Positions 3,491-43,455 of a DNA stretch of 44,849 nt are shown piece by piece. Numbering within the stretch: position 1 is the first letter of the stretch; each line of letters opens with the position of its first letter. This DNA is from Escherichia phage EC115. A model generated the notes under the pieces. That model was given only the letters and a program-made list of their open reading frames with translations, was not told where the DNA came from and searched no databases. The stretch lies in the sequence record NC_073080.1; one strand, written 5' to 3'. Made by a program: the position numbers and the translations under genes.

Positions 3491-4577
3491 TCAATATATG
3501 GCGGATCGAATGATCCGCCGACACATCTTCACCCAGCGCCTGAGTAATGACCAGGCGCGAAGGGTGTTGGCTATGTGGGAGAAGTTCCGGCCCACGTTAC
3601 TGGGTAAGCTAACCGAGTTACTTGATGGTAAAAAGTCCATGAATAACAAGGCACTTACCACTTTGTTAACGCAACTCGACAAGACCGTTAAAACAGAACT
3701 GCGCACCGAGTTTAAGGCGTTGGCTGAAAGCCTTCAGGAGTTTGCCGACACCGAGGCCGATTATCTCGCCGACACATTGACGGCAGCGATCCAGCCGGTG
3801 GTCGCCGTACCGGCGGTCGAGGTGGTCGGCGTAGTGACCGGTGCGCAGATCGCAGCGACGGCAATGAAAAACCCGTTCCTGGGTAATACGATGATGCAGT
3901 GGCCTGACTCCCTTTCTGAGTGGACCAGGACGCAGATCGGGAATCAGGTGCGCGCTGGATTCATCCAGGGCAAGCCAACTATGGAAATTATTGCGGACGT
4001 GAGGCGCGCGCTCGGCGGTCGTAGTGCGCAAGCTATCTCGAGCGTTGTTAAATCCGCAGTAAACCACTATGCGGCGACTGCCCGCGAACTAATGGTAAAA
4101 GCAAATGACGATATTCTCGAAGGTCGCCTATGGTTATCTACATTGGACACACATACTTCTCCCATGTGCCAGCTACGCGATCGCCTGTTTTATCCGGTTG
4201 ATGTTACTCCCGACACCAAAGGAAAGCGCGGCGGGAAAGTGGTGGCGGGGTCACAGTATGGCGATGGCCCAGGAAAGCTGCATTATTGCTGCCGATCGAC
4301 GGAGACGTGGAAAGTCAAAGGCATGGAAGATTGGCCCAGTGGTAAGCGTCCGGCACTGAAGGCCGACGCGGGTCGATTACTGAGTGAGCAGGTAGACGCG
4401 CAGACTGATTTCTTCTCATGGGTGCAGCGCCAGCCGCGCCATATCCTGGAAGAATTATACGGAGTGCAACGCGCCGACCAGATTATGCGCGGCGTGAAAG
4501 TGCCGAAGATGTTTACCGATTCTGGCGAACTGATGACTATCGCACAGCTTAAAAACCGGGGGTTATGGCGTGATTAA
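3474..4577 (+). CDS. Head morphogenesis protein (Mu F / SPP1 gp7-like)
   Basis: 367 aa after portal with overlapping start; Cys/His-containing C-terminal region typical of Mu-F-like minor head proteins. Confidence 0.65.
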   Translation: MAKTINQYMADRMIRRHIFTQRLSNDQARRVLAMWEKFRPTLLGKLTELLDGKKSMNNKALTTLLTQLDKTVKTELRTEFKALAESLQEFADTEADYLADTLTAAIQPVVAVPAVEVVGVVTGAQIAATAMKNPFLGNTMMQWPDSLSEWTRTQIGNQVRAGFIQGKPTMEIIADVRRALGGRSAQAISSVVKSAVNHYAATARELMVKANDDILEGRLWLSTLDTHTSPMCQLRDRLFYPVDVTPDTKGKRGGKVVAGSQYGDGPGKLHYCCRSTETWKVKGMEDWPSGKRPALKADAGRLLSEQVDAQTDFFSWVQRQPRHILEELYGVQRADQIMRGVKVPKMFTDSGELMTIAQLKNRGLWRD

Positions 4578-4899
4578 ATATGCAGCGATTGGACTGGTTA
4601 TCGGTCTGGCGGTAGGATTCTGGCTAGGTGACTCCTATCGCGCTGGCGTAGTGGCGGAGGCGGCGCAAGAAGCGCAAGCCAAAGCCCAACGGCAGCAAAC
4701 TAAAGTTGTGGAGCGCTCCGTGCAGGCCGAACAGGCCCGCGACGTGGAATACCGGACTATCACGAAAGAGGTTGTTAAATATGTTACGCGCCCTAACCGC
4801 CCTGATTGTAGTTTTGATGCTGAGCGCGTGCGGATCAAGCAACGCGCCGTTGATGCCGCTAACGGAGTCGGCACTGCGACCGCCGTGCAAGTTCGATAG
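4570..4899 (+). CDS. i-spanin-like protein (Rz-like)
   Basis: 109 aa; N-terminal transmembrane segment (IGLVIGLAVGFWLG) followed by a charged Ala/Gln-rich helical region. Confidence 0.55.
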   Translation: MIKYAAIGLVIGLAVGFWLGDSYRAGVVAEAAQEAQAKAQRQQTKVVERSVQAEQARDVEYRTITKEVVKYVTRPNRPDCSFDAERVRIKQRAVDAANGVGTATAVQVR

Positions 4900-5011
4900 C
4901 CCGTCCGCAGACCCCGACGAGGATTTGATGATTGACGTGAAAAATATGGAATGCGGGGCGAAGCTAAGGGCGCAGGTGCTGGAGTTGCAGCAAATAATTA
5001 AGGGGCCGTAA
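4781..5011 (+). CDS. o-spanin-like lipoprotein (Rz1-like)
   Basis: Internal ATG with AAAGAGG RBS; MLRALTALIVVLMLSACGSS signal peptide with lipobox LSAC; Pro-rich mature part; out of frame and overlapping the 3' end of the i-spanin ORF. Confidence 0.6.
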   Translation: MLRALTALIVVLMLSACGSSNAPLMPLTESALRPPCKFDSPSADPDEDLMIDVKNMECGAKLRAQVLELQQIIKGP

Positions 5012-5025: not shown

Positions 5026-5790
5026 TTAGCGCGGAATACCGCAAATCTCGTTGAGAGTTTTCACATCCAGCGCCACCGCCGTGGATTTTGGCTTATCCGG
5101 GTAAGGGATGAATTGCTCAACTTCAGGCCATGCCTTAATCAGCTTCTTATCGGTATTGTGCATGTCCAGCACACCGGTAACGGTAAACTTGAATGCGTCA
5201 TACTTAGCACGCAACTCACGGCGGGCCTTGTCGTTACGGTCAAGGCGCTTGCAGAAGTCATGATCTGCCGGGAAATCCGCACGGCAGCGTGGCTTATAGA
5301 TCGGCAGCGATTTTCCGTCCTCGTCCACTTCACACACTGAAGCCAACATAACTGTCTCGAACCCCGGAACGATATCTCCGAGATCAGGCGAGAGCGTATT
5401 CATATATTTCTCTTCCCAGTATCCGCGATGTACGCGGTATTGGCGACCGTCACCGCTCAAGGACAAGATGCGAACATTGCCGCCTGCGTTGATTTCAAAG
5501 GTGGCGTCGTAAACGCTGCCGATACCCTTCGGGCGATCTGTGTCATAGCGATATGTTGCCTTGTTGGTGTATACGCTGACGTTGTACATCTGCGACTGGT
5601 CGTCGCGGATTGCCTTGATATGCTCGCGGAGCGCTGCGAACGTGCGAATGCCTTCCGGCATACAGTCCAGCGTGATTGCGTACGCCAGGTCGCGAGAGTC
5701 CATCATGATTGTTTTGGCTTCGGTAGCGATTTCGTGGTCGCGCAGGATGTTAGCCAGGATCTGATTTTTAATGTCTTTCGTCAGTCTCAT
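5026..5790 (-). CDS. Hypothetical protein (reverse-strand moron in head module)
   Basis: 254 aa ORF on the strand opposite to the structural genes, bounded by the terminator at 5001-5023; no recognisable motif. Confidence 0.6.
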   Translation of the reverse strand: MRLTKDIKNQILANILRDHEIATEAKTIMMDSRDLAYAITLDCMPEGIRTFAALREHIKAIRDDQSQMYNVSVYTNKATYRYDTDRPKGIGSVYDATFEINAGGNVRILSLSGDGRQYRVHRGYWEEKYMNTLSPDLGDIVPGFETVMLASVCEVDEDGKSLPIYKPRCRADFPADHDFCKRLDRNDKARRELRAKYDAFKFTVTGVLDMHNTDKKLIKAWPEVEQFIPYPDKPKSTAVALDVKTLNEICGIPR

Positions 5791-5829
5791 TTTTATGTCC
5801 TCATTTTAGGGGCTTTCGCCACGATTGGT

Positions 5830-6144
5830 TTAGTTGAATTTGATGTTGCCACCGGTGGAAGTTAAGCGGGCACATACAGCTTCAACGGCATCGACGCACA
5901 TGAAATCGTTAAAGGCTTCGACCAGGGCGTTTATGAAAGATGCCGGAACCAGGCCGCAAGCCGGATTATCGAATATCGCGGAGTTGATCGCCGCTTTTGC
6001 CGCTTCAGAAGCATTCATGCTCTGGCACAGATTCAGCGCTTCCGCGTTACGCATTGCGTGAAAGGTAAAGGTATTAGCTACGGTAGCTTTATTGAAACGG
6101 GCCATTGCGGCGTCTACTGGAGTTGCTACGGTCATGTTAGTCAT
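5830..6144 (-). CDS. Hypothetical protein
   Basis: Minus-strand ORF upstream of 5026..5790; start chosen at the ATG (MTNMTV) preceded by GAAGGAAG RBS; track ORF extends to 6204. Confidence 0.5.
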   Translation of the reverse strand: MTNMTVATPVDAAMARFNKATVANTFTFHAMRNAEALNLCQSMNASEAAKAAINSAIFDNPACGLVPASFINALVEAFNDFMCVDAVEAVCARLTSTGGNIKFN

Positions 6145-6179
6145 TTTGTCTTCCTTCATATCTCTGTTGGTGTGCAACC

Positions 6180-6209
6180 AATATACTGCAACCAACATTC
6201 GCAATGCAA
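6180..6209 (-). promoter_or_regulatory. Sigma70-like promoter for the reverse-strand cassette
   Basis: On the minus strand TTGCAT-N18-TATATT; contains two TTGGTTGCA 9-mers; the 21-mer TATATTGGTTGCACACCAACA is identical to the one at 40282-40302. Confidence 0.45.
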
Positions 6210-16949: not shown

Positions 16950-17557
16950 CAACGTTTAAATTGTACGGCGTCTTAGGGCGTCGATTCGGTAAAGTTCATA
17001 AGCTGGACTGCTTCACTCCGGGCGAGGGTATTACCGGCCTGTGCGTGAAGTTACCCGGCTTACAGGACTTTCTAATGTCAGCCCACCTGGACAATATGAT
17101 GTTCAAGGTGCGCAAAGGCGACCACACGATGACCGGCTATGATGAGCTGGGTGAGTTCCACGGCAACCGCGTCGTCACCATCGCGCCGGTTATGACTGGC
17201 GCAAAAAGAGGGTTGGGACAATTGCTGGCGGGTGTCGCGATCGTAGTGGCGTCGTTCTATACGGGCGGACTTGCTACTGCCGCTTTCGGGGCTTCGGCTG
17301 CAACCGCTGCCGCTATCGGGACGGCGACGTTTTCGTTCGGGATGTCGATGGCGCTGGGTGGCGTTATGCAATTGCTGTCGCCACAACCGAAGGGATTGCA
17401 GACAAGGCAGGACGTGGATAACAAGGCGTCGTATGCGTTCGGCGGCCCAGTAAACACTACCGCGCAAGGCACGGCTCTTGGTGTATTATGGGGCGAGCGT
17501 GAGATCGGCGGCGCTATTATTTCAGCCGGAATCGTAACCGAGGACTTGAACGAATGA
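16940..17557 (+). CDS. Tail assembly protein I-like
   Basis: 205 aa with Gly/Ala-rich hydrophobic C-terminal half; overlaps the K and J genes. Confidence 0.7.
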   Translation: MAMTTFKLYGVLGRRFGKVHKLDCFTPGEGITGLCVKLPGLQDFLMSAHLDNMMFKVRKGDHTMTGYDELGEFHGNRVVTIAPVMTGAKRGLGQLLAGVAIVVASFYTGGLATAAFGASAATAAAIGTATFSFGMSMALGGVMQLLSPQPKGLQTRQDVDNKASYAFGGPVNTTAQGTALGVLWGEREIGGAIISAGIVTEDLNE

Positions 17558-20500
17558 CGATTATCTACGACGTCACAGGGCATAAAGGCGGCGGCGGCAA
17601 ACAGCACACCCCACAGGAGACGCCAGATAGCCTGCATTCGCTGGCTAAAATCCGCATCTTGCTTGCACTGGGCGAGGGTGAATTCGAAAGTATTACCAGC
17701 GCCAGCGAATTGCGGCAGCGTGTTTACCTGGACGGAACACCGATCCAGAACGCTGACCTGTCCGAAAACTTCCCTGGCGCGCGTGTGGAGTTCCGCCCCG
17801 GCACACAGCACCAGGATGTGATCCACGGATTTTCAGCGGTGGAAAGTGAGCAATCTGTCGGCGTAAAACTGGAAAACGGCACGCCGTGGGTGCGCCAGAT
17901 TAACGATACCAGTCTGGACGCTGTTCGCATTCGCATCGGCATTCCAGCCCTGTACACTAACGAAGATAATGGCGACCTGGTGGGCGGGCGCATCGACTAT
18001 AAGATAGTTGTGTATACGGATAACGCCGACCCGCGTGAGTTCAGATTCGCCGCCGTTGGTAAAACAATGTCGCTATATGAGCGCGACCACCGCATCGAAT
18101 TACCTCCGAACGTTAACACCGGCTGGCGCGTGGAGGTGCACCGCATAACGGCAGACTCCACATCGGCGAAAGTGGTTAATGATATCCGGGTGCAGTCCAT
18201 CACTGAGATTATTGACGCCCGCCTGCGTTACCCGCTAACCGCGCTGTTGTTTGTGGAGTTCGACGCCAAAGCGTTCCAGAACATCCCGCGCGTGTCCATC
18301 AAGTGCAAAGGCCGTAAAGTTCTAATACCGAACAACTACGACCCGATTAATCATACCTATTCCGGGGACTGGGACGGCACGTTTAAACGCGCATGGACGG
18401 ATAACCCTGCGTGGCACTGGTACGATATTTGTATTACTGAGCGCTTCGGCCTCGGTCGGCGTATCAAACCGCAAATGTTAAACCGGTACGCGCTCTACCA
18501 GATTGCGCAGCGCTGCGATCAGTTGGTCAGCGACGGCAACGGTGGTCGAGAAATCCGCTTTAAGAATGATATGTACATCCAGTCGCAGACAGACGCCTGG
18601 ACCGTGCTTAAGGATTTGGCGGCCATCTTCGCCGGAATGACCTGGTGGGGTAACCAGATGTTGAATATCGTCAGTGACCAACCGGTCGCGGCGGTGTCGC
18701 ACACTATCACCAACGCCTCGGTAATTGATGGGCGATTCGACTACGCATCTGGTAGCCAGAAAACGCGCTATTCCACATTCGCGGTAGCATACGGCAATCC
18801 GAAAAACCACTATGAAGATGCTATCGCAACGGGGCAACGTGTCGAACTGGTACGCCGCCATAAGATTAACCGTCTTGATATTACGGCGATCGGCTGTACG
18901 CGTGAATCTGAAGCGCAACGCCGGGGGCACTGGGCGCTAATCTCAAACCAGCTTGACCAGCAAGTTAGTTTTAAGGTGGGCATGGAGGGGTTATTCTTTA
19001 TCCCCGGTAGCGTAGTTGCGATCGCAGATACTAATATTTCTGGCGGATTCGAGACTCGTGGCGGTCGCCTGTTGTCGGACCCTGGAACGCGTACCGTGCT
19101 GAACACGGACAGCGAAATCACATTCCGCCCTGGCGATAAGTTCCTGGTACGCACCGATAGCGGTAATGTGGAGACTCGCGAGATCGCCAGCGTCAACGGC
19201 AACAAGGTTACGCTAAAAACCGCACTTGATGCCGACCCGATTCCAGACCAGCCGTTTTGCGTTGATGGCGACGATATCCAGTTGCAAAAATTCCGCATCA
19301 CCGACCTGGAATATGACGACTCTACGAGCACTTTCTCGGTGCGCGGGATTGAATACAACGATAGCAAGTATGATGCCGTTGATAATGGCGCTCGCCTTGA
19401 CCCTGGCATCTTTACGCAAGTGCCTGACGGTGTAATGAAGGGGCCGGAATCCGTGACCATCACCCCGTCGCAGATTTCATCGCAAGGCCAGCTAATCACC
19501 AACGTGGATATTGTATTCCCTCCGGTGAAGGATGCCGTGGTGTATGAAATCCAGTGGCGACGTACCAGCTTGCAGAATATGGAAATCCAGTGGGGTAACG
19601 ACTGGGTGAATATCCCACGCACGGCGTCGAACGGCGCGCACATCCCCAACGTGTTCTCCGGTAACTATCAGGCACGCGTCCGCGCGATCGGTATGGGCGA
19701 GATTTCATCTCCGTGGGTGTCGTCCGCCATCACGCCGGTGGAAGGTCGTCTCGGTGGGCTTAACGCACCAATCATCACCAACGCTATTTCGGGCCTTCAC
19801 CAGATCTTGTGGAAGTGGAACCACAACAACGCCGCTACTGATATCTCGTACACCGAGCTTGAAGTGCGCAAGACCGGTGAGACTGAATGGAAATTCCTTA
19901 CCAACGTCCCATATCCGGGGGCGGAGTATGCGCAAACATCGCTGGAGTTCGGAATTTACCAGCAGTTGCGCGCCCGTGTAGCGGATAAAATCGGCAACCT
20001 GTCGGACTGGTCGGCCCCGTTTGAAGGGCAGGTGAGTGACAAAGTTGACGAGTACATGAAGGGGCTTGATGACGAGTTCTTGACTTCCGAGGATGGTAAA
20101 CGCTTCCAGGAAGCAATCAACACGATCCCGCAGGGTATTTACGAGGCGATGCTCACCGACGCGCAGCAATTGTTCAACGCCCGCGCCGAGTACAAGGGTA
20201 TTTATGCGGAAATCTCGGTCGCGTATAACGTGGCGGCGGACGCCCACAAGGCGGTCGCTCAACTGGAGACGTTGATCGGCACGCGACTTGATGACGCGGA
20301 AGCTGCGATCCACACGTTGCAGACCGCGCAGAGCACACAGGAACAAGCGTTCGCCCAGTATCAGCAAACTGTTGCCGCTAAGTTCGGGGAACAAGAAGCC
20401 GCCATCCAGCAGGTACAAACGGCAACCGCAGACGTGGCGGGAGCGCTGGCGGAATATAAGACCCAGGTCGCTGCACAGTTCGGTCAGCAGTCCGCCGCTA

Positions 20501-20973
20501 TCGAGCAGAAGATGACGTCCTCGTTTAACCACTCTGGTGGTAGCGCCACGTATAGCCTTAAGGCTGGCGTGACACATAACGGGACTTATTATGATGCGGG
20601 TATGCAGCTTTCCGTTGTGACGTCTGGCAACGCGGTTAAATCGCGTATTGCGTTCAAGGCGGACCAGTTCTACATCATGCATCCGTCCAATGGGACGCTG
20701 TCGTCTGCGTTTATTGTGGACGGTGGCGCGGTGTATATCGACACGGCACGCATCAAGAACGCGTCCATCAACTTCGCGCAGATAACAGACACGCTGCAAT
20801 CGGATAACTACGACGGCAGCACGCGCGGCTGGCGCTTAGGGAAAGATGGAACGTTTATCAACCTGGGCACCGGTAGCGGCGGCGGGATGAAACAGACGAA
20901 CACAAGAATAAGCGTGAAGGACGGAAACGGCGTTCTCCGCGTGCAGATTGGTGAGCTTACTGGTAGCTGGTAG
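17554..20973 (+). CDS. Tail tip / host specificity protein J-like
   Basis: 1139 aa, size and position as lambda J; Ala/Gln-rich repeats in the C-terminal third. Confidence 0.9.
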   Translation: MTIIYDVTGHKGGGGKQHTPQETPDSLHSLAKIRILLALGEGEFESITSASELRQRVYLDGTPIQNADLSENFPGARVEFRPGTQHQDVIHGFSAVESEQSVGVKLENGTPWVRQINDTSLDAVRIRIGIPALYTNEDNGDLVGGRIDYKIVVYTDNADPREFRFAAVGKTMSLYERDHRIELPPNVNTGWRVEVHRITADSTSAKVVNDIRVQSITEIIDARLRYPLTALLFVEFDAKAFQNIPRVSIKCKGRKVLIPNNYDPINHTYSGDWDGTFKRAWTDNPAWHWYDICITERFGLGRRIKPQMLNRYALYQIAQRCDQLVSDGNGGREIRFKNDMYIQSQTDAWTVLKDLAAIFAGMTWWGNQMLNIVSDQPVAAVSHTITNASVIDGRFDYASGSQKTRYSTFAVAYGNPKNHYEDAIATGQRVELVRRHKINRLDITAIGCTRESEAQRRGHWALISNQLDQQVSFKVGMEGLFFIPGSVVAIADTNISGGFETRGGRLLSDPGTRTVLNTDSEITFRPGDKFLVRTDSGNVETREIASVNGNKVTLKTALDADPIPDQPFCVDGDDIQLQKFRITDLEYDDSTSTFSVRGIEYNDSKYDAVDNGARLDPGIFTQVPDGVMKGPESVTITPSQISSQGQLITNVDIVFPPVKDAVVYEIQWRRTSLQNMEIQWGNDWVNIPRTASNGAHIPNVFSGNYQARVRAIGMGEISSPWVSSAITPVEGRLGGLNAPIITNAISGLHQILWKWNHNNAATDISYTELEVRKTGETEWKFLTNVPYPGAEYAQTSLEFGIYQQLRARVADKIGNLSDWSAPFEGQVSDKVDEYMKGLDDEFLTSEDGKRFQEAINTIPQGIYEAMLTDAQQLFNARAEYKGIYAEISVAYNVAADAHKAVAQLETLIGTRLDDAEAAIHTLQTAQSTQEQAFAQYQQTVAAKFGEQEAAIQQVQTATADVAGALAEYKTQVAAQFGQQSAAIEQKMTSSFNHSGGSATYSLKAGVTHNGTYYDAGMQLSVVTSGNAVKSRIAFKADQFYIMHPSNGTLSSAFIVDGGAVYIDTARIKNASINFAQITDTLQSDNYDGSTRGWRLGKDGTFINLGTGSGGGMKQTNTRISVKDGNGVLRVQIGELTGSW

Positions 20974-21009: not shown

Positions 21010-21312
21010 ATGGCATTCGGTATCGCAACGTGGGACGCGCAAGGACGCCCAAACAACTACGGCATTAAACCGGTAAGCGTGATCGGAAGGATTCATCTTG
21101 CGGAAGGACAAAAATCAGGCGCATGGTCATTCCCTGTACCGGCGGGGATGAAGGTCGGATACGTGGTCGCACTGGATAAAGGCGCGGTCGGGCCAGGCCG
21201 CAGAATAACCGCCAGCGGGAACACTATCACGGTTTCCGCGGCAAGTGCGGTAGGTGGCGGGGTTTACTCCGCATCTGAATGTGACGTTATTGTTTTTGTG
21301 GAGCGAGCATAA
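21010..21312 (+). CDS. Hypothetical tail-distal protein
   Basis: 100 aa ORF with GAGG RBS after the J terminator; shares a G-(F)A-x-WD-x-x-G-(K/R) motif with the next ORF. Confidence 0.5.
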   Translation: MAFGIATWDAQGRPNNYGIKPVSVIGRIHLAEGQKSGAWSFPVPAGMKVGYVVALDKGAVGPGRRITASGNTITVSAASAVGGGVYSASECDVIVFVERA

Positions 21313-21986
21313 TGGCTAATTACGGCGCGTTGATTGACTTACCAAACGGCAACCCGTTTATCACGCCAGAATCGACGCCGTTTTGTCTATTCCGCCGTGT
21401 GGTTGTTGGGTCTTCGGCAAACGGCACTGCGCAGTCGGCGGCTGCCGATATTAATTTGGGTGGTGACTACCCGGCAATAGCGTTTGTGAAAACTACGCAC
21501 ACCGCCCAGCCGACCGTCGTAGGGTCTTCTCGCGTTGGTAATGTGGTGAAGGTGAGCGCCAGCAATCCATTCGGGCAAGGCTTCACGATGACGGCTTACA
21601 TCTTTGCCATATTCCCACAGACCCTTCCGCGGTGGGGCTTCGCTATTTGGGATAAGACGGGGAAGCTAGTACTTACTAATGAGAGTCGCGTACTAAGCGA
21701 TTTAGTTACCGTCGGATCTCCTGGCGCTAACGGGGGGATTAACATTGACCAGACGCTAAATGGCAGCTACGCCGTCGCTCCGGGCATATTGGGGTCTACG
21801 CTGATCCGGTTTTTTGTGCAGGGCCAGCCGCAAGTAATATCGGTAACGGCGTACACGGGGGCCAGATTTGATGGGTCGCGAACGCGTATATCAGCAGCGT
21901 CGTCGGGGAACGCCACGGGGGATGTGGTGGGGTATACTAACAACGGCAACGCGATTATGGCGATTAACACGGCCAATTATGATTGA
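21312..21986 (+). CDS. Hypothetical tail-distal protein
   Basis: 224 aa, Gly/Thr/Asn-rich, ATGA-type start overlap with the previous ORF. Confidence 0.55.
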   Translation: MANYGALIDLPNGNPFITPESTPFCLFRRVVVGSSANGTAQSAAADINLGGDYPAIAFVKTTHTAQPTVVGSSRVGNVVKVSASNPFGQGFTMTAYIFAIFPQTLPRWGFAIWDKTGKLVLTNESRVLSDLVTVGSPGANGGINIDQTLNGSYAVAPGILGSTLIRFFVQGQPQVISVTAYTGARFDGSRTRISAASSGNATGDVVGYTNNGNAIMAINTANYD

Positions 21987-21988
21987 AG

Positions 21989-22012
21989 AAAGCCCCGAAA
22001 GGGGCTTATTTG
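21989..22012. terminator. Bidirectional terminator
   Basis: AGCCCC-gaaa-GGGGCT hairpin followed by TATTTG, between converging genes. Confidence 0.55.
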
Positions 22013-22224
22013 CAGGTGGTGCTTTTGAAGTGGTCGACCGACACATACTGGAAGTTGAACGGATACCCCGCCTTGAGCATTTTGTGCCCGCTAAAGTCGG
22101 CGACACCGAACACTGGTACAGAATACTCCATACCGCTATTCATATATGTCGCGTCGCAGATTTTAGACGGCATACCGGCACAACCGGACAGAAGAACCGC
22201 ACAAATCATAATTAAAGTTTTCAT
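22006..22224 (-). CDS. Small lipoprotein, Cor-like superinfection-exclusion candidate
   Basis: 72 aa from ATG 22224 (AGGAGA RBS); MKTLIMICAVLLSGC signal peptide with lipobox; reverse-oriented between tail-tip and tail-fibre genes. Confidence 0.6.
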   Translation of the reverse strand: MKTLIMICAVLLSGCAGMPSKICDATYMNSGMEYSVPVFGVADFSGHKMLKAGYPFNFQYVSVDHFKSTTCK

Positions 22225-22303
22225 GTTATCATCTCCTATATTTGGTTGAGTTTTAGTATTACACCTCTCAACCAGGATTGCAACCAATTACGAGGATTTA
22301 GCT

Positions 22304-24262
22304 ATGGCAGCGGGCACACTATCCGTAACGAATAACAGCAAGGCGGTTGTCGGGGTAGGCACGACGTTTACCGCGTTTAAAGCCGGAGACTTCTTAACGC
22401 TGGTGGTGGGCCAAGTACCCTACACCGTAGCGATCGCGTCCGTTGAAAGTGCAACCGCGCTAACGCTGGTGCTGCCGTTCGACGGCCCAACGGCAACCGG
22501 CCTCGCGTGGGATGGCGTTAAGCGCGATACCATGTCGCTGGCAACGATGGGCGTTACCGTACAGGCACAGAAAGCGTTGCGCTTGATGATCGCAGATGAA
22601 AACAACTGGCGTGCAATCTTCGGCGACGCTGAAGAAATCACAGTGACGTTACCTAACGGGCAAGTTATGCAGGGCATGTCGTGGGGCTATTTGTCCTCCT
22701 TGCTGAAGGAAGTAGACCCCGTTGAGATGCGCAACCTTCAACAACAGGCCGAGACGGCGAAAAAGACTGGGGCGGAGACGGCGCGCGACGCAGCTAATAC
22801 TGCGAAGACCGACGCGCAGACCGCAAAAGGCCAGGCCGAATCCGCGCGCGACGCCGCTAATACTGCGAAGACTGGGGCGGAGACGGCACGCGACCAGGCT
22901 AATACTGCGAAGACCGACGCGCAGACCGCAAAAGGCCAGGCCGAATCCGCGCGCGACGCCGCTAATACTGCGAAGACCGGAGCAGAGAACGCTCGCAACC
23001 AGGCGCAAGGCTACCGTGATGAGGCGGAAGGTTTTAAAAACCAGATTAACCCTGCACTATTCGTGCAGAAGTCCCAAAACCTGAATGACGTTGCCGATAA
23101 AGCTGAGGCGCGCGCTAACTTGCAAGTTTTATTTGCGTCAAACTCTAACCTGGGGGCTACCGACCTCAACACGCTCAACAGCACGAAGGAAGGGCGTTAT
23201 TACCAGACCACATCGGTGAACGCTACACCAGAGCGTAACTACCCGTTTCAGGAAGCCGGTTGTCTTACCGTGTTTAAAACCGGCGGGGGTAGTGTGGAGG
23301 CTTGCATCCAGGAGTACACCACGTTTTTAAGCCTGCGTCGGTTCGTCCGTTCGCTCGCTGGGGCGGTGTGGACGGCGTGGAAGGAGATCTACCTGCAAGG
23401 GTCGTCCCCAACATACGAAAATATCGACTCGACAGGACGAGTTAGATCTGAAAAGGCATACCCAGCGTTCGAGTGGGTGTCGACGAGAGTAGCCGACGAT
23501 TTCATCGGTAAGCGAGTCAGCATTGAGAACGACACAGGCGTTAATATGTATATGTTCTTCATGCGGAAAGACACAACCGCAAACAGACGTGTCGTAGCGT
23601 TCGCAAGGCCAAACTCTACTGTTTTCCACTTCGTAGGGTATAACGGCGGGTTACCTACCGACGGCAACAGTGCGCCGTCAAATAACATCAACTTTAACAC
23701 GCAACCGCAAGGCTGGCGTCTGGTGTCCGGCGGCTGGCAAAATGCACCGCTAGCCGGTAACAATTACGGGACACTATTCACGCAATGCATGCAGGGTGTC
23801 GCGGAAGGGGATTCGAAAGACAACGGTACATCAGGCTTGTGGTATTCACAGCGATATTTTAATTCCGAGTCTAGGGTGTTCATCCGACATCAAACAAACA
23901 ACGCCGCTTGGACTGGCTGGTACGAGCTTACTAAAACAGCAGTATCGGATGAACGCCTGAAGAATGTAAAAGGTAATTTGAATGTTGAAGGTGCGCTCGA
24001 TAACATCAACCGCATGGAATTTAAAATATTCTCGTTTAAGGATGAGAAGGCCGGTAAGGGGTGTCGTCGCGGTGTTATCTCGCAGCAGATTCGCCAGATC
24101 GATAAAGAGTACACGAAGGAGATCGGCGGGTACTATCACCTCGACCAGACACCAATGCTACTGGACGCCCTAGCGGCAATTAAGGCGTTGCGTGCGCGTG
24201 ACGAGGCTAATAAAGCAGAGATTGCAGAACTGAAGGCGGCTATTGCCGAATTGAAGAAATAA
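22304..24262 (+). CDS. Tail fibre protein with C-terminal intramolecular chaperone domain
   Basis: 652 aa; conserved N-terminus, tandem Ala/Thr-rich repeats, C-terminal DERLKN-containing segment resembling self-cleaving chaperone domains of tail fibres/spikes, coiled-coil tail. Confidence 0.85.
   Translation: MAAGTLSVTNNSKAVVGVGTTFTAFKAGDFLTLVVGQVPYTVAIASVESATALTLVLPFDGPTATGLAWDGVKRDTMSLATMGVTVQAQKALRLMIADENNWRAIFGDAEEITVTLPNGQVMQGMSWGYLSSLLKEVDPVEMRNLQQQAETAKKTGAETARDAANTAKTDAQTAKGQAESARDAANTAKTGAETARDQANTAKTDAQTAKGQAESARDAANTAKTGAENARNQAQGYRDEAEGFKNQINPALFVQKSQNLNDVADKAEARANLQVLFASNSNLGATDLNTLNSTKEGRYYQTTSVNATPERNYPFQEAGCLTVFKTGGGSVEACIQEYTTFLSLRRFVRSLAGAVWTAWKEIYLQGSSPTYENIDSTGRVRSEKAYPAFEWVSTRVADDFIGKRVSIENDTGVNMYMFFMRKDTTANRRVVAFARPNSTVFHFVGYNGGLPTDGNSAPSNNINFNTQPQGWRLVSGGWQNAPLAGNNYGTLFTQCMQGVAEGDSKDNGTSGLWYSQRYFNSESRVFIRHQTNNAAWTGWYELTKTAVSDERLKNVKGNLNVEGALDNINRMEFKIFSFKDEKAGKGCRRGVISQQIRQIDKEYTKEIGGYYHLDQTPMLLDALAAIKALRARDEANKAEIAELKAAIAELKK
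22766..23010 (+). repeat. Tandem 105 bp repeat (about 2.3 copies) inside tail fibre gene
   Basis: Near-identical 105 nt units encoding a repeating 35 aa block (…ARDAANTAKT…). Confidence 0.8.
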
Positions 24263-25461: not shown

Positions 25462-25491
25462 ACTATAGTGCAACCAACCTATTGGTTGCAA
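25462..25491 (-). promoter_or_regulatory. Promoter with embedded perfect palindromic operator
   Basis: Minus strand TTGCAA-N18-TATAGT; the spacer is filled by TGCAACCAA-ccta-TTGGTTGCA (25469-25490, 9 bp arms). Confidence 0.5.
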
Positions 25492-27370: not shown

Positions 27371-27399
27371 AAGATAATGCAACCAATATGATTATGCAA
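27371..27399 (-). promoter_or_regulatory. Candidate promoter with two direct TTGGTTGCA copies
   Basis: Minus strand TTGCAT-N17-TATCTT; 9-mers at 27378-27386 and 27395-27403. Confidence 0.35.
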
Positions 27400-27404
27400 C
27401 CAAT

Positions 27405-30327: not shown

Positions 30328-30356
30328 ACTATACCGCTATGCGACCAATTCAGCAA
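30328..30356 (-). promoter_or_regulatory. Candidate sigma70 promoter
   Basis: Minus strand TTGCTG-N17-TATAGT upstream of the zinc-ribbon gene. Confidence 0.35.
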
Positions 30357-30615
30357 CCAATAAATCACAGTCGGCGATGTTGTCTATAACGCGAACGTCA
30401 GCGCCGCGGCGGGCCATCCGCTCATGTTCACGTACCTGGTGCGGCTTCGGTTTTCCTCCTGGGCGCTTCACTTCGACGAACACTATTTTGCCGTTGATGA
30501 TGATAATCAGGTCGGGCGCACCTGCGCGCCCCTCCCAGGCCATTTTGCGGCAGAATCCGCCTACCTCTTTCACCCGTCGCATCAGGTGACTTTGAATCTT
30601 GCCTTCTGGTGTCAT
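30337..30615 (-). CDS. VRR-NUC domain nuclease
   Basis: 92 aa from ATG 30615; PDLIIIINGKIVFVEVKRPGGKPKPHQ matches the VRR-NUC D...E.K core; start overlaps the polymerase stop. Confidence 0.7.
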   Translation of the reverse strand: MTPEGKIQSHLMRRVKEVGGFCRKMAWEGRAGAPDLIIIINGKIVFVEVKRPGGKPKPHQVREHERMARRGADVRVIDNIADCDLLVAELVA

Positions 30616-33914: not shown

Positions 33915-34004
33915 TTTCCAATTCCTCATTTTCACATGTATCGGGGTTATTATGAGCCACCCCGTTCGGCTTGGTTGCTAATCTACTTGGTTGCGCCTAA
34001 GCGA

Positions 34005-37026: not shown

Positions 37027-37055
37027 ATATTAGATTGGTTGCATGAGGGAGTCAA
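37027..37055 (-). promoter_or_regulatory. Leftward sigma70-like promoter for the early/replication operon
   Basis: Minus strand TTGACT-N17-TAATAT; overlaps a TTGGTTGCA 9-mer. Confidence 0.5.
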
Positions 37056-39835: not shown

Positions 39836-39941
39836 ATTTTGCGCGCATTGGTTGCCATTTTGAGTGTTTTTAGCTGGTAGCATTGGTTGCCGTGTAGTGT
39901 GAATATAATGCATAGTTATGCAATAAAACTGCATAAAGTAA

Positions 39942-40099: not shown

Positions 40100-40258
40100 C
40101 ATAAAATCCAGGATTGCATAACGCACGGCAGCATGTTGCGGATTGCGGTCGTCGATGAACTAGGCAACCAATGCGAGGTGCAGAATGGCGGGCGGGAAAT
40201 GCAGTTTGCAGTCACAGCAGATAGCGATCAACTTTTTCATGCGCGTGATTAATATTGG

Positions 40259-40287
40259 TTGCATTCGGCCTGGCACCTTGCTATATT
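40259..40287 (+). promoter_or_regulatory. Sigma70-like promoter flanked by TTGGTTGCA copies
   Basis: TTGCAT-N17-TATATT; 9-mers at 40255-40263 and 40286-40294; GAGGA RBS before the ATG at 40316. Confidence 0.5.
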
Positions 40288-40315
40288 GGTTGCACACCAA
40301 CATGAGGACTGAACA

Positions 40316-42165: not shown

Positions 42166-42456
42166 ATGGATAAGCTAAACGAGTGGTTATTCGCCCTTGC
42201 GTGTCTTGCTGGTGGCTTCGTAGGCGCACGCATTCATGGCGAGGCAACGAAAGGGCCGTTGAACTTCGTTTTATATGTCGTAGTTGGCTTCCTGTGTGCC
42301 ATATTTGGTGCGCCAGCTATTGCCGAGTGGTCTGGTTTGTCCGGTGAGCGCACTGTTGCCGGTTTGGGCTTCGTAACTGCCATCTTCTGGATGCCAATAG
42401 CTGACCGGATCCGGGAGACAATTGCGTCGCTACACCTTCCGGGGGGCGCAAAATGA
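42166..42456 (+). CDS. Holin (putative, three transmembrane segments)
   Basis: 96 aa with three hydrophobic segments and a charged C-terminus; upstream of the endolysin. Confidence 0.55.
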   Translation: MDKLNEWLFALACLAGGFVGARIHGEATKGPLNFVLYVVVGFLCAIFGAPAIAEWSGLSGERTVAGLGFVTAIFWMPIADRIRETIASLHLPGGAK

Positions 42457-42698
42457 TTATCACCGTCCTGTTGTTTGTTATCATAGGGGCTTCGTCCCTG
42501 TTTAACGTGTATGCGCCGTCCGTTCAGGATGGCTTCTTCGGTCGGGTGTTATATCTGCTAACAGCAATGACCTGTATTGTCGGGCTGTTGCAAACGGGAG
42601 ACGTCTCTGATGCCACCTGGACCGCGTTAATCTGGCTGTTTGCATTGCGCACCCTGCGTAATGCTGTTTTGAATGGGGTAAAACATGCGATTCAGTGA
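42453..42698 (+). CDS. Second holin-like membrane protein
   Basis: 81 aa with three hydrophobic segments; ATGA overlap with the holin, overlaps the endolysin start. Confidence 0.5.
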   Translation: MIITVLLFVIIGASSLFNVYAPSVQDGFFGRVLYLLTAMTCIVGLLQTGDVSDATWTALIWLFALRTLRNAVLNGVKHAIQ

Positions 42699-43176
42699 TA
42701 ACGGTCTACGATTTACGGCAGCATGGGAGGCTTTCAGCCCGGTGCCGTATTTCGCGACCAAGAAAGAGCAGGCCCGCGGCCTGTACACCTGGGGTTATGG
42801 GCACACTGGCACTAATCCGCCACGAAGCATTACCCGTGCGGAAGCGCTGGAACTGCTCAAGCGCGATGTGGCGTATGCTGAGGACTGGGTGAACAAATAC
42901 GCACATCCGAGCATTAACCAGGCGCAATTCGACGCGCTGGTGGATCTGGTAATCAACGCCGGTCCAGGTCCGATCGTACCGGATGACGTCGCGAACGACT
43001 TTGATGATGCGGTGCGACTGGGCGACTGGGCGAAGGTACGAGCTACTCTGCCGCAGTTCCGCAAGCAAGGTGGCGAAGTGCTTAAGGGTCTGGTGCGCCG
43101 TGCAATCGGCAGGCAAGCGCTATTCGATGGTAAGCAGTGGGACGTTGCCGAGCGAATCGGTCGTAACGCTGCATAA
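42685..43176 (+). CDS. Endolysin (phage lysozyme-like)
   Basis: 163 aa; E...YTWGYGHTG segment resembling the catalytic region of phage lysozymes; follows the holins. Confidence 0.75.
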   Translation: MRFSDNGLRFTAAWEAFSPVPYFATKKEQARGLYTWGYGHTGTNPPRSITRAEALELLKRDVAYAEDWVNKYAHPSINQAQFDALVDLVINAGPGPIVPDDVANDFDDAVRLGDWAKVRATLPQFRKQGGEVLKGLVRRAIGRQALFDGKQWDVAERIGRNAA

Positions 43177-43394: not shown

Positions 43395-43455
43395 GCTTGA
43401 CTCGCAACCAACACAGGGGCCATACTGCAACCAATCAACTGGAGGAGTAATCAAG

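What the first reader, a model, noticed from the sequence alone, without database searches (positions are those of the whole stretch)
22006..22224. Reverse-strand small lipoprotein between tail-tip and tail-fibre genes (Cor-like exclusion candidate)
A 72 aa ORF with a lipoprotein signal peptide and lipobox (LLSGC) is transcribed opposite to the flanking tail genes and bracketed by a bidirectional terminator. Small outer-membrane lipoproteins at this position in T1-, phi80- and N15-type phages (Cor) block the phage receptor to exclude superinfection.
Basis: partly seen in the sequence, partly recalled or inferred. Interest (0 to 1): 0.55.

Follow-up and report, generated by a model that had tools for sequence, protein, structure and literature searches.

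The report
Cor receptor-blocking lipoprotein of a Dhillonvirus
The small reverse-strand gene is a genuine member of the well-known Cor family of phage lipoproteins that switch off the FhuA receptor of an infected E. coli cell, and identical copies are already annotated in sequenced relatives, so it is an ordinary finding.

Summary
The 72-aa ORF at 22006-22224 (- strand) is real. It has a Shine-Dalgarno site and a rule-conforming lipoprotein signal peptide (lipobox LSGC, Cys15), and it is under strong purifying selection (dN/dS 0.05-0.13).

It passes NCBI's curated equivalog model 'phage exclusion lipoprotein Cor' (62.8 bits, cutoff 31) and matches PHROG 1119 (E 5e-28). It is 49/42/40% identical to Cor of T1, N15 and phi80. 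It is 100% identical to the annotated 'super-infection exclusion protein' of phages welsh and jat.

The window is a Dhillonvirus. Its J, p24-like and p25-like proteins are 99-100% identical to those of JLBYU60, which is experimentally FhuA-dependent. The gene sits in the canonical J-p24-p25-cor-tail fibre cassette of FhuA phages.

Its 'bracketing' terminator is one conserved hairpin at the 3' end only.

Two side observations are less trivial. The promoter and the exact 15-aa signal peptide are shared with the non-homologous exclusion lipoproteins of BtuB- and LptD-targeting Dhillonviruses. A TTGGTTGCA motif is over-represented in intergenic regions.

Verdict: already known; low interest.

The parts
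22006..22224 (-). cor coding sequence (72 codons plus TAA stop): precursor of the Cor-family exclusion lipoprotein
   Evidence: ORF and translation. PHROG 1119 E 5.3e-28. NCBIfam NF047972 62.8 bits against cutoff 31. dN/dS 0.05-0.13. 100% identical to welsh and jat 'super-infection exclusion protein'.
22183..22224 (-). Type II (lipoprotein) signal peptide, residues 1-14 (MKTLIMICAVLLSG). Cys15 (codon 22180-22182) is the predicted lipidated first residue of the mature protein.
   Evidence: Rule-based check: Lys2, hydrophobic core, lipobox LSGC, PS51257-type match. G14 and C15 are (nearly) invariant in 85 family members. The same 15 residues occur in the PTXU06 and Oekolampad lipoproteins.
22009..22182 (-). 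Mature Cor domain (58 aa): small beta-barrel with conserved Cys23 and Cys71 (predicted disulfide) and the (K/R)AGYPF motif
22232..22237 (-). Shine-Dalgarno sequence AGGAGA; the GGAG core lies 8 nt upstream of the ATG
   Evidence: Read from the sequence. Conserved as AGGAGA or AGGGGA in 7 Dhillonviruses.
22255..22287 (-). Putative sigma-70 promoter of cor: TTGCAA (22283-22278), 17-nt spacer, TG-n-AATACT (-10 at 22260-22255). The -35 is embedded in the phage-wide motif TTGGTTGCA (22287-22279). The -10 lies inside the inverted repeat TGGTTGAG/CTCAACCA (22243-22250 / 22267-22274).
   Evidence: Read from the sequence. Only 8 of 12 consensus matches, so the scanner did not call it. The region is almost invariant in 7 Cor-type and 3 non-Cor-type Dhillonviruses. 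The motif is over-represented in the window. Inverted repeats. Function is inferred, not shown.
21990..22007 (.). Shared hairpin between the convergent p25-like gene and cor (AAGCCCC-GAAA-GGGGCTT), a probable bidirectional intrinsic terminator with weak U tracts
   Evidence: Inverted repeat I4. Fold z -2.5 and -3.3. Conserved stem with variable loop and one compensatory pair. Not called by the consensus scanner. T1 has an analogous annotated terminator directly after cor.
21010..21312 (+). p24-like gene (100 aa), first of two cassette genes between J and cor; the 'outer membrane protein' label is by annotation only
   Evidence: PHROG 557 E 1e-32. 99% identical to JLBYU60, 70-73% to N15, HK75 and phi80, 54% to T1. 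No hydrophobic segment: maximum 19-residue Kyte-Doolittle window 1.18.
21312..21986 (+). p25-like gene (224 aa), second cassette gene; the 'membrane associated protein' label is by annotation only. With the p24-like gene it forms the locus that Maffei et al. call the bona fide receptor-binding-protein locus.
   Evidence: PHROG 425 E 4.6e-70. 100% identical to JLBYU60, 53-64% to T1, N15, HK75 and phi80. Maximum Kyte-Doolittle window 1.23. PMC8594841.
17554..20973 (+). J-like tail tip protein (1139 aa), start of the host-recognition cassette
   Evidence: Pfam FNIII-A_GpJ, Phage-tail_3 and Phage_Tail_Tip. 99.2% identical to J of the FhuA-dependent phage JLBYU60 (PMC10373560).
22304..24262 (+). 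Lateral tail fibre gene (652 aa) downstream of the cassette, divergent from cor
   Evidence: PHROG 1980 E 2.5e-119 and Peptidase_S74 chaperone domain. Only the N-terminal ~290 aa resemble the JLBYU60 fibre, at 66%.

Best explanation
The ORF is the cor gene of a virulent Dhillonvirus that uses FhuA as its terminal receptor.

Proposed sequence of events:
1. After infection the gene is transcribed leftward from its own sigma-70-type promoter in the 79-nt gap before the tail-fibre gene (inferred).
2. The precursor is exported by Sec, lipidated on Cys15 and cleaved by signal peptidase II. [quoted passage not shown] This is inferred from the sequence rules for lipoproteins.
3. The 58-residue mature domain is a small disulfide-stapled beta-barrel with the fold of T5 Llp. 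[quoted passage not shown] This is inferred by analogy with the solved FhuA-Llp complex and published Cor-FhuA models.
4. The infected cell, and FhuA-containing debris after lysis, then no longer adsorb this phage or other FhuA phages (T1, T5, phi80).

What is shown here: family membership, lipoprotein features, cassette context and fold similarity. What is not shown for this protein: FhuA binding, the timing of expression and the exclusion phenotype.
For: - Family membership: NCBIfam NF047972 'phage exclusion lipoprotein Cor' (equivalog) scores 62.8 bits against a cutoff of 31. PHROG 1119 matches full-length at E 5.3e-28. A profile search found 299 relatives, many named Cor by NCBI and UniRef.
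- Similarity to characterised Cor proteins: 49% identity to T1, 42% to N15, 45% to HK75 and 40% to phi80. Lipobox Cys, C23, C71 and AGYPF are invariant.
- Real gene: dN/dS is 0.05-0.13.
- Context: the order J - p24-like - p25-like - cor - tail fibre is the same as in T1, N15, HK75 and phi80.
- Receptor: J, p24-like and p25-like proteins are 99.2%, 99% and 100% identical to those of JLBYU60. JLBYU60 was shown experimentally to depend on FhuA (PMC10373560).
- Cassette-receptor link: PMC13164509 reports the full cor cassette in all Drexlerviridae and Dhillonvirus BASEL phages that use FhuA. Dhillonviruses that use BtuB (PTXU06) or LptD (Oekolampad) carry different cassettes at the same site.
- Literature: Cor of HK022, N15 and phi80 inactivates FhuA functions (PMC3594210). 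[quoted passage not shown] Cor and Llp share a predicted fold (bioRxiv 10.64898/2026.03.26.714494).
Against: - No experiment exists for a Dhillonvirus Cor; everything functional is by homology.
- Cor-FhuA binding has never been solved structurally. The 2026 preprint states that the molecular mechanism of Cor 'has not yet been elucidated'.
- From my own knowledge, the title of Arguijo-Hernandez et al. 2018 (cited, paper not held) points to interactions with other outer-membrane proteins.
- Foldseek against the PDB gave no hit at E<=0.001. Llp ranked second at E 0.049, among Tudor/SH3-like barrels.
- The single-sequence match to Llp is not significant (E 0.31), and part of the profile match is signal peptide.
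- The promoter is below the scanner's threshold.
- Timing is uncertain. In the BtuB and LptD cassettes the same promoter region precedes the lipoprotein gene and the downstream receptor-binding-protein genes. 'Early only' expression therefore cannot be assumed.
Confidence: 0.88

Rival explanations
1. Same protein and same target, but a different selective benefit. The main role would be to stop newly released progeny from being inactivated on FhuA in envelope debris of the lysed cell, as proposed for T5 Llp as a 'lytic conversion' protein. Keeping out competitors during the short lytic cycle would be secondary.
For: The phage is virulent: no integrase or repressor is annotated in the 94.7%-identical genome JLBYU60. 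Lysogenic conversion, the classical Cor role, therefore cannot apply. PMC13164509 states that the exclusion mechanism also prevents adsorption of progeny to remnants of lysed cells. The same promoter drives receptor-binding-protein genes in sister cassettes, which is compatible with expression late in the cycle.
Against: Nothing in the sequence separates the two benefits, and they are not mutually exclusive. No timing data exist.
Confidence: 0.45
2. Cor does not bind FhuA directly. It would act through other outer-membrane proteins (OmpA or porins) or by disturbing FhuA-TonB coupling, so the Llp analogy would be structural only.
For: [quoted passage not shown] The 2026 preprint says the mechanism is not elucidated. 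T1 and phi80 infection needs TonB whereas T5 does not (PMC10373560).
Against: The predicted fold matches the FhuA-bound form of Llp better than any other solved structure. PMC13164509 reports an AlphaFold3 Cor:FhuA model with ipTM 0.84, docked at the periplasmic face. The cor cassette co-varies with FhuA use.
Confidence: 0.12
3. The lipoprotein blocks a receptor other than FhuA (for example BtuB or LptD).
For: Small lipoproteins at this exact position in other Dhillonviruses go with BtuB or LptD use. PMC13164509 notes Cor-like proteins in some BtuB-using phages.
Against: Those lipoproteins have unrelated mature domains. This one is a Cor equivalog and is linked to J, p24 and p25 proteins 99-100% identical to those of a phage shown to need FhuA.
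Confidence: 0.03
4. It is a lysis or assembly lipoprotein (o-spanin-like), or not a gene at all.
For: Small size and a lipobox are also features of o-spanins. Short antisense ORFs are common by chance: 73 ORFs of at least 30 aa overlap this 7-kb stretch.
Against: The phage has its own Rz/Rz1-like spanin pair at 4570-5011, and holins and lysozyme at about 42166-43173. Strong HMM matches to Cor and dN/dS of 0.05-0.13 show it is a conserved Cor gene.
Confidence: 0.01

Closest known systems
Cor superinfection-exclusion lipoproteins of phages T1, phi80, N15 and HK022/HK75/mEp167 (NCBIfam NF047972; PHROG 1119)
   Same: Full-length homology at 40-49% identity. Shared lipobox, two conserved Cys and the (K/R)AGYPF motif. 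Same position after J, p24 and p25 and before the side tail fibre. The phage uses FhuA. As in T1, the gene is convergent with the tail genes and followed directly by a GC hairpin.
   Different: The linker after the lipidated Cys is 3 residues shorter than in the temperate-phage proteins (72 aa against 77-78 aa), as in T1. In the temperate phages cor is co-directional with the tail genes; here and in T1 it is inverted. The host phage is virulent, so there is no lysogenic conversion. No experiment has been done on any Dhillonvirus Cor.
Annotated 'super-infection exclusion protein' of Dhillonviruses welsh (QHR68085.1), jat, JLBYU60, SSL-2009a, Envy and Gluttony
   Same: 100% identical protein in welsh and jat; 85-97% in the others. 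Same locus, promoter region and terminator.
   Different: None of substance. The window is a mosaic: about 94.7% identical to JLBYU60 overall, with a welsh-like cor region and a different distal tail fibre.
T5 Llp (lytic conversion lipoprotein; PDB 8A60 chain B with FhuA, 7QJF free)
   Different: Sequence similarity is marginal (E 0.31 single sequence, E 0.0037 with the profile). Llp is paired with the receptor-binding protein pb5, not with a J-p24-p25 cassette. It is not matched by the Cor HMMs as a family member.
Rtp45 / Oekolampad bas18_0026 (LptD-directed) and PTXU06-type (BtuB-linked) exclusion lipoproteins at the same locus
   Same: Same genomic slot, same promoter region and, for Oekolampad and PTXU06, the identical 15-residue signal peptide MKTLIMICAVLLSGC. 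Rtp45 is shown to block LptDE from the periplasmic side (PMC12685063).
   Different: The mature domains are unrelated in sequence to Cor. Their partner receptor-binding-protein genes lie on the - strand downstream of the lipoprotein gene rather than on the + strand after J.

Membership tests
Cor phage exclusion lipoprotein (NCBIfam NF047972 / PHROG 1119) | Scores above the curated cutoff of the family HMM over its full length | tested here: met
   NF047972 equivalog: 62.8 bits against cutoff 31, residues 2-71 on profile positions 2-76 of 78. PHROG 1119: E 5.3e-28, residues 1-72 on 1-75 of 78. Pfam has no model for this family (0 hits).
Cor phage exclusion lipoprotein (NCBIfam NF047972 / PHROG 1119) | Type II signal peptide with lipobox and lipidated Cys; sorting to the outer membrane | tested here: met
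   Lys2, hydrophobic core, LSGC with Cys15, PS51257-type rule satisfied, +2 residue Ala. G14 and C15 are (nearly) invariant in 85 members. This is sequence evidence only; processing was not tested.
Cor phage exclusion lipoprotein (NCBIfam NF047972 / PHROG 1119) | Conserved mature-domain signature: two Cys (near the N and C termini of the domain) and the (K/R)AGYPF motif | tested here: met
   C23, G53, P55 and C71 are invariant; A52, Y54 and F56 are at least 90% conserved in 85 sequences. All are present here.
Cor phage exclusion lipoprotein (NCBIfam NF047972 / PHROG 1119) | Located in the J - p24-like - p25-like - cor cassette next to the side tail fibre gene | tested here: met
   The window order matches T1, N15, HK75 and phi80.
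Cor phage exclusion lipoprotein (NCBIfam NF047972 / PHROG 1119) | The encoding phage uses FhuA as terminal receptor | tested here: met
   By near-identity only. J is 99.2%, p24-like 99% and p25-like 100% identical to JLBYU60, which is experimentally FhuA-dependent (PMC10373560).
Cor phage exclusion lipoprotein (NCBIfam NF047972 / PHROG 1119) | Expression excludes FhuA-dependent phages and impairs FhuA transport functions | not testable with these tools
   Needs plating, adsorption and ferrichrome, albomycin or colicin M assays. Shown for temperate-phage Cor according to PMC3594210.
Llp-like fold / periplasmic TonB-dependent-transporter-blocking lipoproteins (T5 Llp, PDB 8A60) | Small disulfide-stapled beta-barrel fold superposable on Llp | tested here: met
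Llp-like fold / periplasmic TonB-dependent-transporter-blocking lipoproteins (T5 Llp, PDB 8A60) | Significant sequence homology to Llp | tested here: inconclusive
   phmmer E 0.31. Cor profile against Llp E 0.0037, covering the signal peptide and the first 25-30 mature residues only.
Llp-like fold / periplasmic TonB-dependent-transporter-blocking lipoproteins (T5 Llp, PDB 8A60) | [quoted passage not shown] | not testable with these tools
   No complex prediction tool was available. PMC13164509 reports an AlphaFold3 model for a T1-like Cor with ipTM 0.84.
o-spanin (Rz1-like lysis lipoprotein) | Lipoprotein gene embedded in or adjacent to an i-spanin gene in a lysis context; homology to spanin families | tested here: not met
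   No spanin family matches Cor. The Rz/Rz1-like pair is at 4570-5011.

The most novel reading that the evidence does not exclude
The conserved promoter plus the exact signal-peptide coding segment of this gene may serve as the fixed right-hand recombination arm of a swappable host-recognition cassette in Dhillonviruses. Homology between FhuA-, BtuB- and LptD-type phages runs from the tail-fibre gene through the promoter to the lipobox Cys codon and stops there. A receptor switch would therefore exchange the receptor-binding genes and only the mature, receptor-specific part of the exclusion lipoprotein in one event. In addition, the cor promoter may belong to a phage-wide set of sites marked by TTGGTTGCA, either a special -35 element or the operator of an unidentified phage regulator. 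That would place exclusion under the same temporal control as many replication-region genes.
Probability: 0.45. Interest if true: 0.35.

Novelty: already known. Interest (0 to 1): 0.12.

Why it matters
In practice the gene is a useful marker. Together with the p24/p25-like genes it predicts that this phage uses FhuA, and that infected cells will transiently exclude T1-, T5- and phi80-type phages. That bears on phage-cocktail design and on receptor prediction from genomes.

Scientifically it adds nothing new about Cor itself. The family, its cassette, its link to FhuA and its Llp-like fold are all published, and identical proteins are already annotated.

The one point that might merit a short follow-up is the exact junction of cassette exchange at the lipobox codon, with one signal peptide serving three unrelated exclusion domains. 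This illustrates how receptor-binding and exclusion functions are swapped together.

Tried and rejected
- Pfam scan of Cor, p24-like and p25-like proteins: no family.
- PADLOC defence models: no hit for any of the three.
- Single-sequence search of the 5.8-billion-protein index found only 6 close relatives. A profile of Cor proteins from T1, N15, HK75 and phi80 was needed to reach 299.
- The consensus promoter/terminator scanner called neither the cor promoter nor the 21990-22007 hairpin. Both rest on reading the sequence, folding and conservation.
- Folding the 79-nt intergenic region as RNA on either strand was not better than shuffles (z about -0.9). The TGGTTGAG/CTCAACCA repeat is therefore not supported as an RNA structure. 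Its substitutions across phages are a mix of compensatory, wobble and disruptive changes.
- A p24-p25 internal similarity suspected by eye was not supported (BLASTP E 0.2).
- Rfam and tRNA scans of the whole window found nothing.
- Two key papers could not be read: Arguijo-Hernandez 2018 and Wietzorrek 2006.
- The spanin and 'not a gene' readings were rejected.
- I did not use the representative-library HMMER job, the second structure job or the metagenome and genome scans. The answer did not depend on them.

Full report
**1. What is in the sequence**

On the - strand an ATG at 22224 opens a 72-codon frame that ends with TAA at 22008-22006. An AGGAGA Shine-Dalgarno sequence lies at 22237-22232, with the GGAG core 8 nt upstream of the ATG. 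The product is MKTLIMICAVLLSGCAGMPSKICDATYMNSGMEYSVPVFGVADFSGHKMLKAGYPFNFQYVSVDHFKSTTCK.

It has the three parts of a bacterial lipoprotein signal peptide:
- Lys2.
- A hydrophobic core (mean Kyte-Doolittle 2.4).
- The lipobox L-S-G-C, with Cys15.

The precursor fits a PROSITE PS51257-type rule, and residue +2 is Ala.

The mechanical ORF list extends the frame to a TTG at 22287. Every homologue starts at the MK of the ATG.

The flanking genes are all on the + strand:
- The J-like tail tip protein, 17554-20973 (Pfam FNIII-A_GpJ, Phage-tail_3, Phage_Tail_Tip).
- Two small genes at 21010-21312 and 21312-21986.
- The lateral tail fibre, 22304-24262.

It overlooked the two genes between J and the lipoprotein gene.

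**2. Terminator and promoter**

There is one hairpin, AAGCCCC-GAAA-GGGGCTT (21990-22007). It lies between the convergent p25-like gene and the lipoprotein gene and overlaps the stop codon.
- It folds better than shuffled sequence on both strands (z -2.5 and -3.3).
- It is conserved in seven Dhillonviruses, with variable loops and one compensatory stem change in JLBYU37.
- Its T tracts are short, so the consensus scanner did not list it.
- Phage T1 has an annotated terminator of the same design directly after its cor gene.

The gene is thus terminated, not 'bracketed', by a probable bidirectional terminator.

Upstream, the 79-nt gap before the divergent tail-fibre gene holds TTGCAA, a 17-nt spacer and TG-n-AATACT. 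This scores 8 of 12, below the scanner's threshold. The region is nevertheless almost invariant across ten Dhillonviruses. I read it as the promoter, by inference only.

**3. It is a real gene**

Against five Dhillonvirus relatives, dS is 0.49-0.74 and dN is 0.04-0.09. This gives dN/dS of 0.05-0.13.

**4. What it is**

- PHROG 1119 'Cor superinfection exclusion protein' matches full-length at E 5.3e-28.
- NCBI's curated equivalog model NF047972, 'phage exclusion lipoprotein Cor', scores 62.8 bits against a cutoff of 31.
- Pfam and PADLOC have nothing.
- tblastn finds the protein in 244 phage records. It is 100% identical in phages jat and welsh, where it is annotated 'super-infection exclusion protein'. 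It is 85-97% identical in other Dhillonviruses, 49% in T1, 42% in N15, 45% in HK75 and 40% in phi80.
- A profile search found 299 relatives, many named Cor by NCBI or UniRef, mostly from enterobacterial prophages.
- In an 85-sequence alignment M1, C15, C23, G53, P55 and C71 are invariant. G14, G31, V36, A52, Y54, F56, V61 and F66 are at least 90% conserved. All are present here.

**5. Which phage and which receptor**

The window is a Dhillonvirus. Its first 25 kb is 94.7% identical to phage JLBYU60, and the cor region is 99.8% identical to phage welsh.

Its J, p24-like and p25-like proteins are 99.2%, 99% and 100% identical to those of JLBYU60. JLBYU60 was isolated and characterised as FhuA-dependent (PMC10373560).

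The order J - p24 - p25 - cor - tail fibre is the one found in T1, N15, HK75 and phi80. Maffei et al. matched the alleles of this locus to receptor specificity and called it the bona fide receptor-binding-protein locus with a cognate exclusion protein (PMC8594841). A 2026 paper reports the full cor cassette in all FhuA-using Drexlerviridae and Dhillonvirus phages of the BASEL collection (PMC13164509).

p24 and p25 are far better conserved between these unrelated phages (53-73%) than J (35-37%) or Cor (40-49%). Neither has a hydrophobic segment. Their 'membrane protein' names therefore look unfounded, and a role in FhuA recognition looks more plausible.

**6. How it most likely works**

An AlphaFold2 model built on the 85-sequence alignment has mean pLDDT 83, with 92-94 across residues 21-70. 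It is an all-beta barrel.
- Foldseek agrees only weakly (E 0.049).
- Sequence links to Llp are marginal (E 0.31 single sequence, 0.0037 with the profile).

[quoted passage not shown] The same paper says that Cor proteins probably act likewise (PMC9586334). Cor of HK022, N15 and phi80 inactivates FhuA functions (PMC3594210). A 2026 preprint and PMC13164509 both report the Cor/Llp fold similarity, and the latter an AlphaFold3 Cor:FhuA model.

My explanation is therefore as follows. [quoted passage not shown] There it binds FhuA from the periplasm and blocks adsorption allosterically. This protects the infected cell from superinfection, and probably protects progeny from debris.

Family membership and fold are shown here. 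Binding, timing and phenotype are inferred.

**7. Rivals**

- Progeny protection versus competitor exclusion is a question of benefit, not mechanism. It cannot be settled from sequence.
- Indirect action through other outer-membrane proteins remains possible, because no Cor-FhuA structure exists.
- A different receptor is very unlikely, given the cassette's identity to that of a FhuA-dependent phage.
- A spanin role is excluded: the phage has its own Rz/Rz1-like pair at 4570-5011.

**8. Side observations**

(a) Dhillonviruses with other receptors keep the same leftward promoter and the same signal peptide but carry a different mature domain.
- PTXU06 is BtuB-dependent according to PMC10373560. 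Oekolampad uses LptD, and its bas18_0026 is called the exclusion lipoprotein in PMC12685063. Both encode lipoproteins beginning with the identical MKTLIMICAVLLSGC.
- DNA identity to PTXU06 is about 96% from the tail-fibre gene through the promoter to the lipobox Cys codon, then collapses.
- In a megablast of 22150-22420, one class of genomes aligns from the first base. A second class aligns from window 22173-22181; the Cys15 codon is 22180-22182. A third class (HK578 type) aligns only from 22211.
- In those other cassettes the receptor-binding-protein genes lie on the - strand behind the lipoprotein gene. This cautions against calling the promoter 'early'.

(b) TTGGTTG occurs 22 times in the window against 6.0 +/- 2.4 expected.
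- Of 27 sites within one mismatch of TTGGTTGCA, 11 fall in the 8.5% of the window that is intergenic, and several more fall at gene boundaries. They often occur in pairs.
- In several sites the TTGCAx part sits 17-18 nt before a TATAnT-like hexamer.
- The motif recurs at homologous places in welsh and JLBYU60 but not in the T1, N15, HK75 or phi80 loci.

**9. Verdict**

The gene is a known, already annotated member of a characterised family, sitting where it is expected. Interest is low. The only mildly new points are the cassette junction at the lipobox codon and the intergenic motif.

Noticed in passing
window 22173-22303 (- strand); L014 26962-27318; L015 2028-2336; L016 1984-2301: The promoter region and the exact 15-aa signal peptide MKTLIMICAVLLSGC are shared with the unrelated exclusion lipoproteins of BtuB-type (PTXU06) and LptD-type (Oekolampad) Dhillonviruses. 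DNA homology stops at the lipobox Cys codon. HK578 shares only the promoter and MKTLI. The cassette-exchange junction therefore lies inside the lipoprotein gene.
   Followed up: partly
window 6173-6195, 22242-22287, 25469-25490, 27378-27403, 30340-30360, 33971-33995, 37035-37043, 39848-39891, 40255-40294, 43403-43434: The motif TTGGTTG(CA) occurs 22 times against 6.0 +/- 2.4 expected. It is concentrated in intergenic regions and often paired 14-35 nt apart. In several sites it supplies a TTGCAx -35-like hexamer 17-18 nt before a TATAnT-like hexamer. It is conserved in welsh and JLBYU60 and absent from the T1, N15, HK75 and phi80 loci. It could be a promoter element or a regulator operator.
   Followed up: partly
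window 21010-21986 (+): [quoted passage not shown] They have no Pfam, NCBIfam or PADLOC match. Across FhuA phages they are better conserved (53-73%) than J (35-37%). This fits a receptor-binding role rather than a membrane one.
   Followed up: partly
window 22304-24262 (+): The lateral tail fibre is mosaic. Only the first ~290 aa resemble the JLBYU60 fibre (66%). Phage welsh, otherwise 99.8% identical across the cor region, has a longer gene at this position (2427 nt). The C terminus carries a Peptidase_S74 intramolecular chaperone domain.
   Followed up: no
window 5029-6198 (- strand): A second reverse-strand unit of two genes of unknown function (PHROGs 1965 and 24635) is embedded in the + strand head genes. 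It is preceded by two TTGGTTGCA copies that lie inside the 5' end of the gene as annotated in JLBYU60. An ATG near 6141 with a good ribosome-binding site suggests the annotated start is too far upstream.
   Followed up: partly
L002 4740-4990 (phage T1, upstream of cor): The region upstream of T1 cor carries several copies of a different repeated motif (CTGTTACAC, or GTAACA in reverse). Each phage group may have its own repeated element in front of cor.
   Followed up: no
window 4570-5011 (+): The Rz/Rz1-like spanin pair (an embedded arrangement) lies among the head genes, about 37 kb from the holin-lysozyme genes at about 42166-43173.
   Followed up: no
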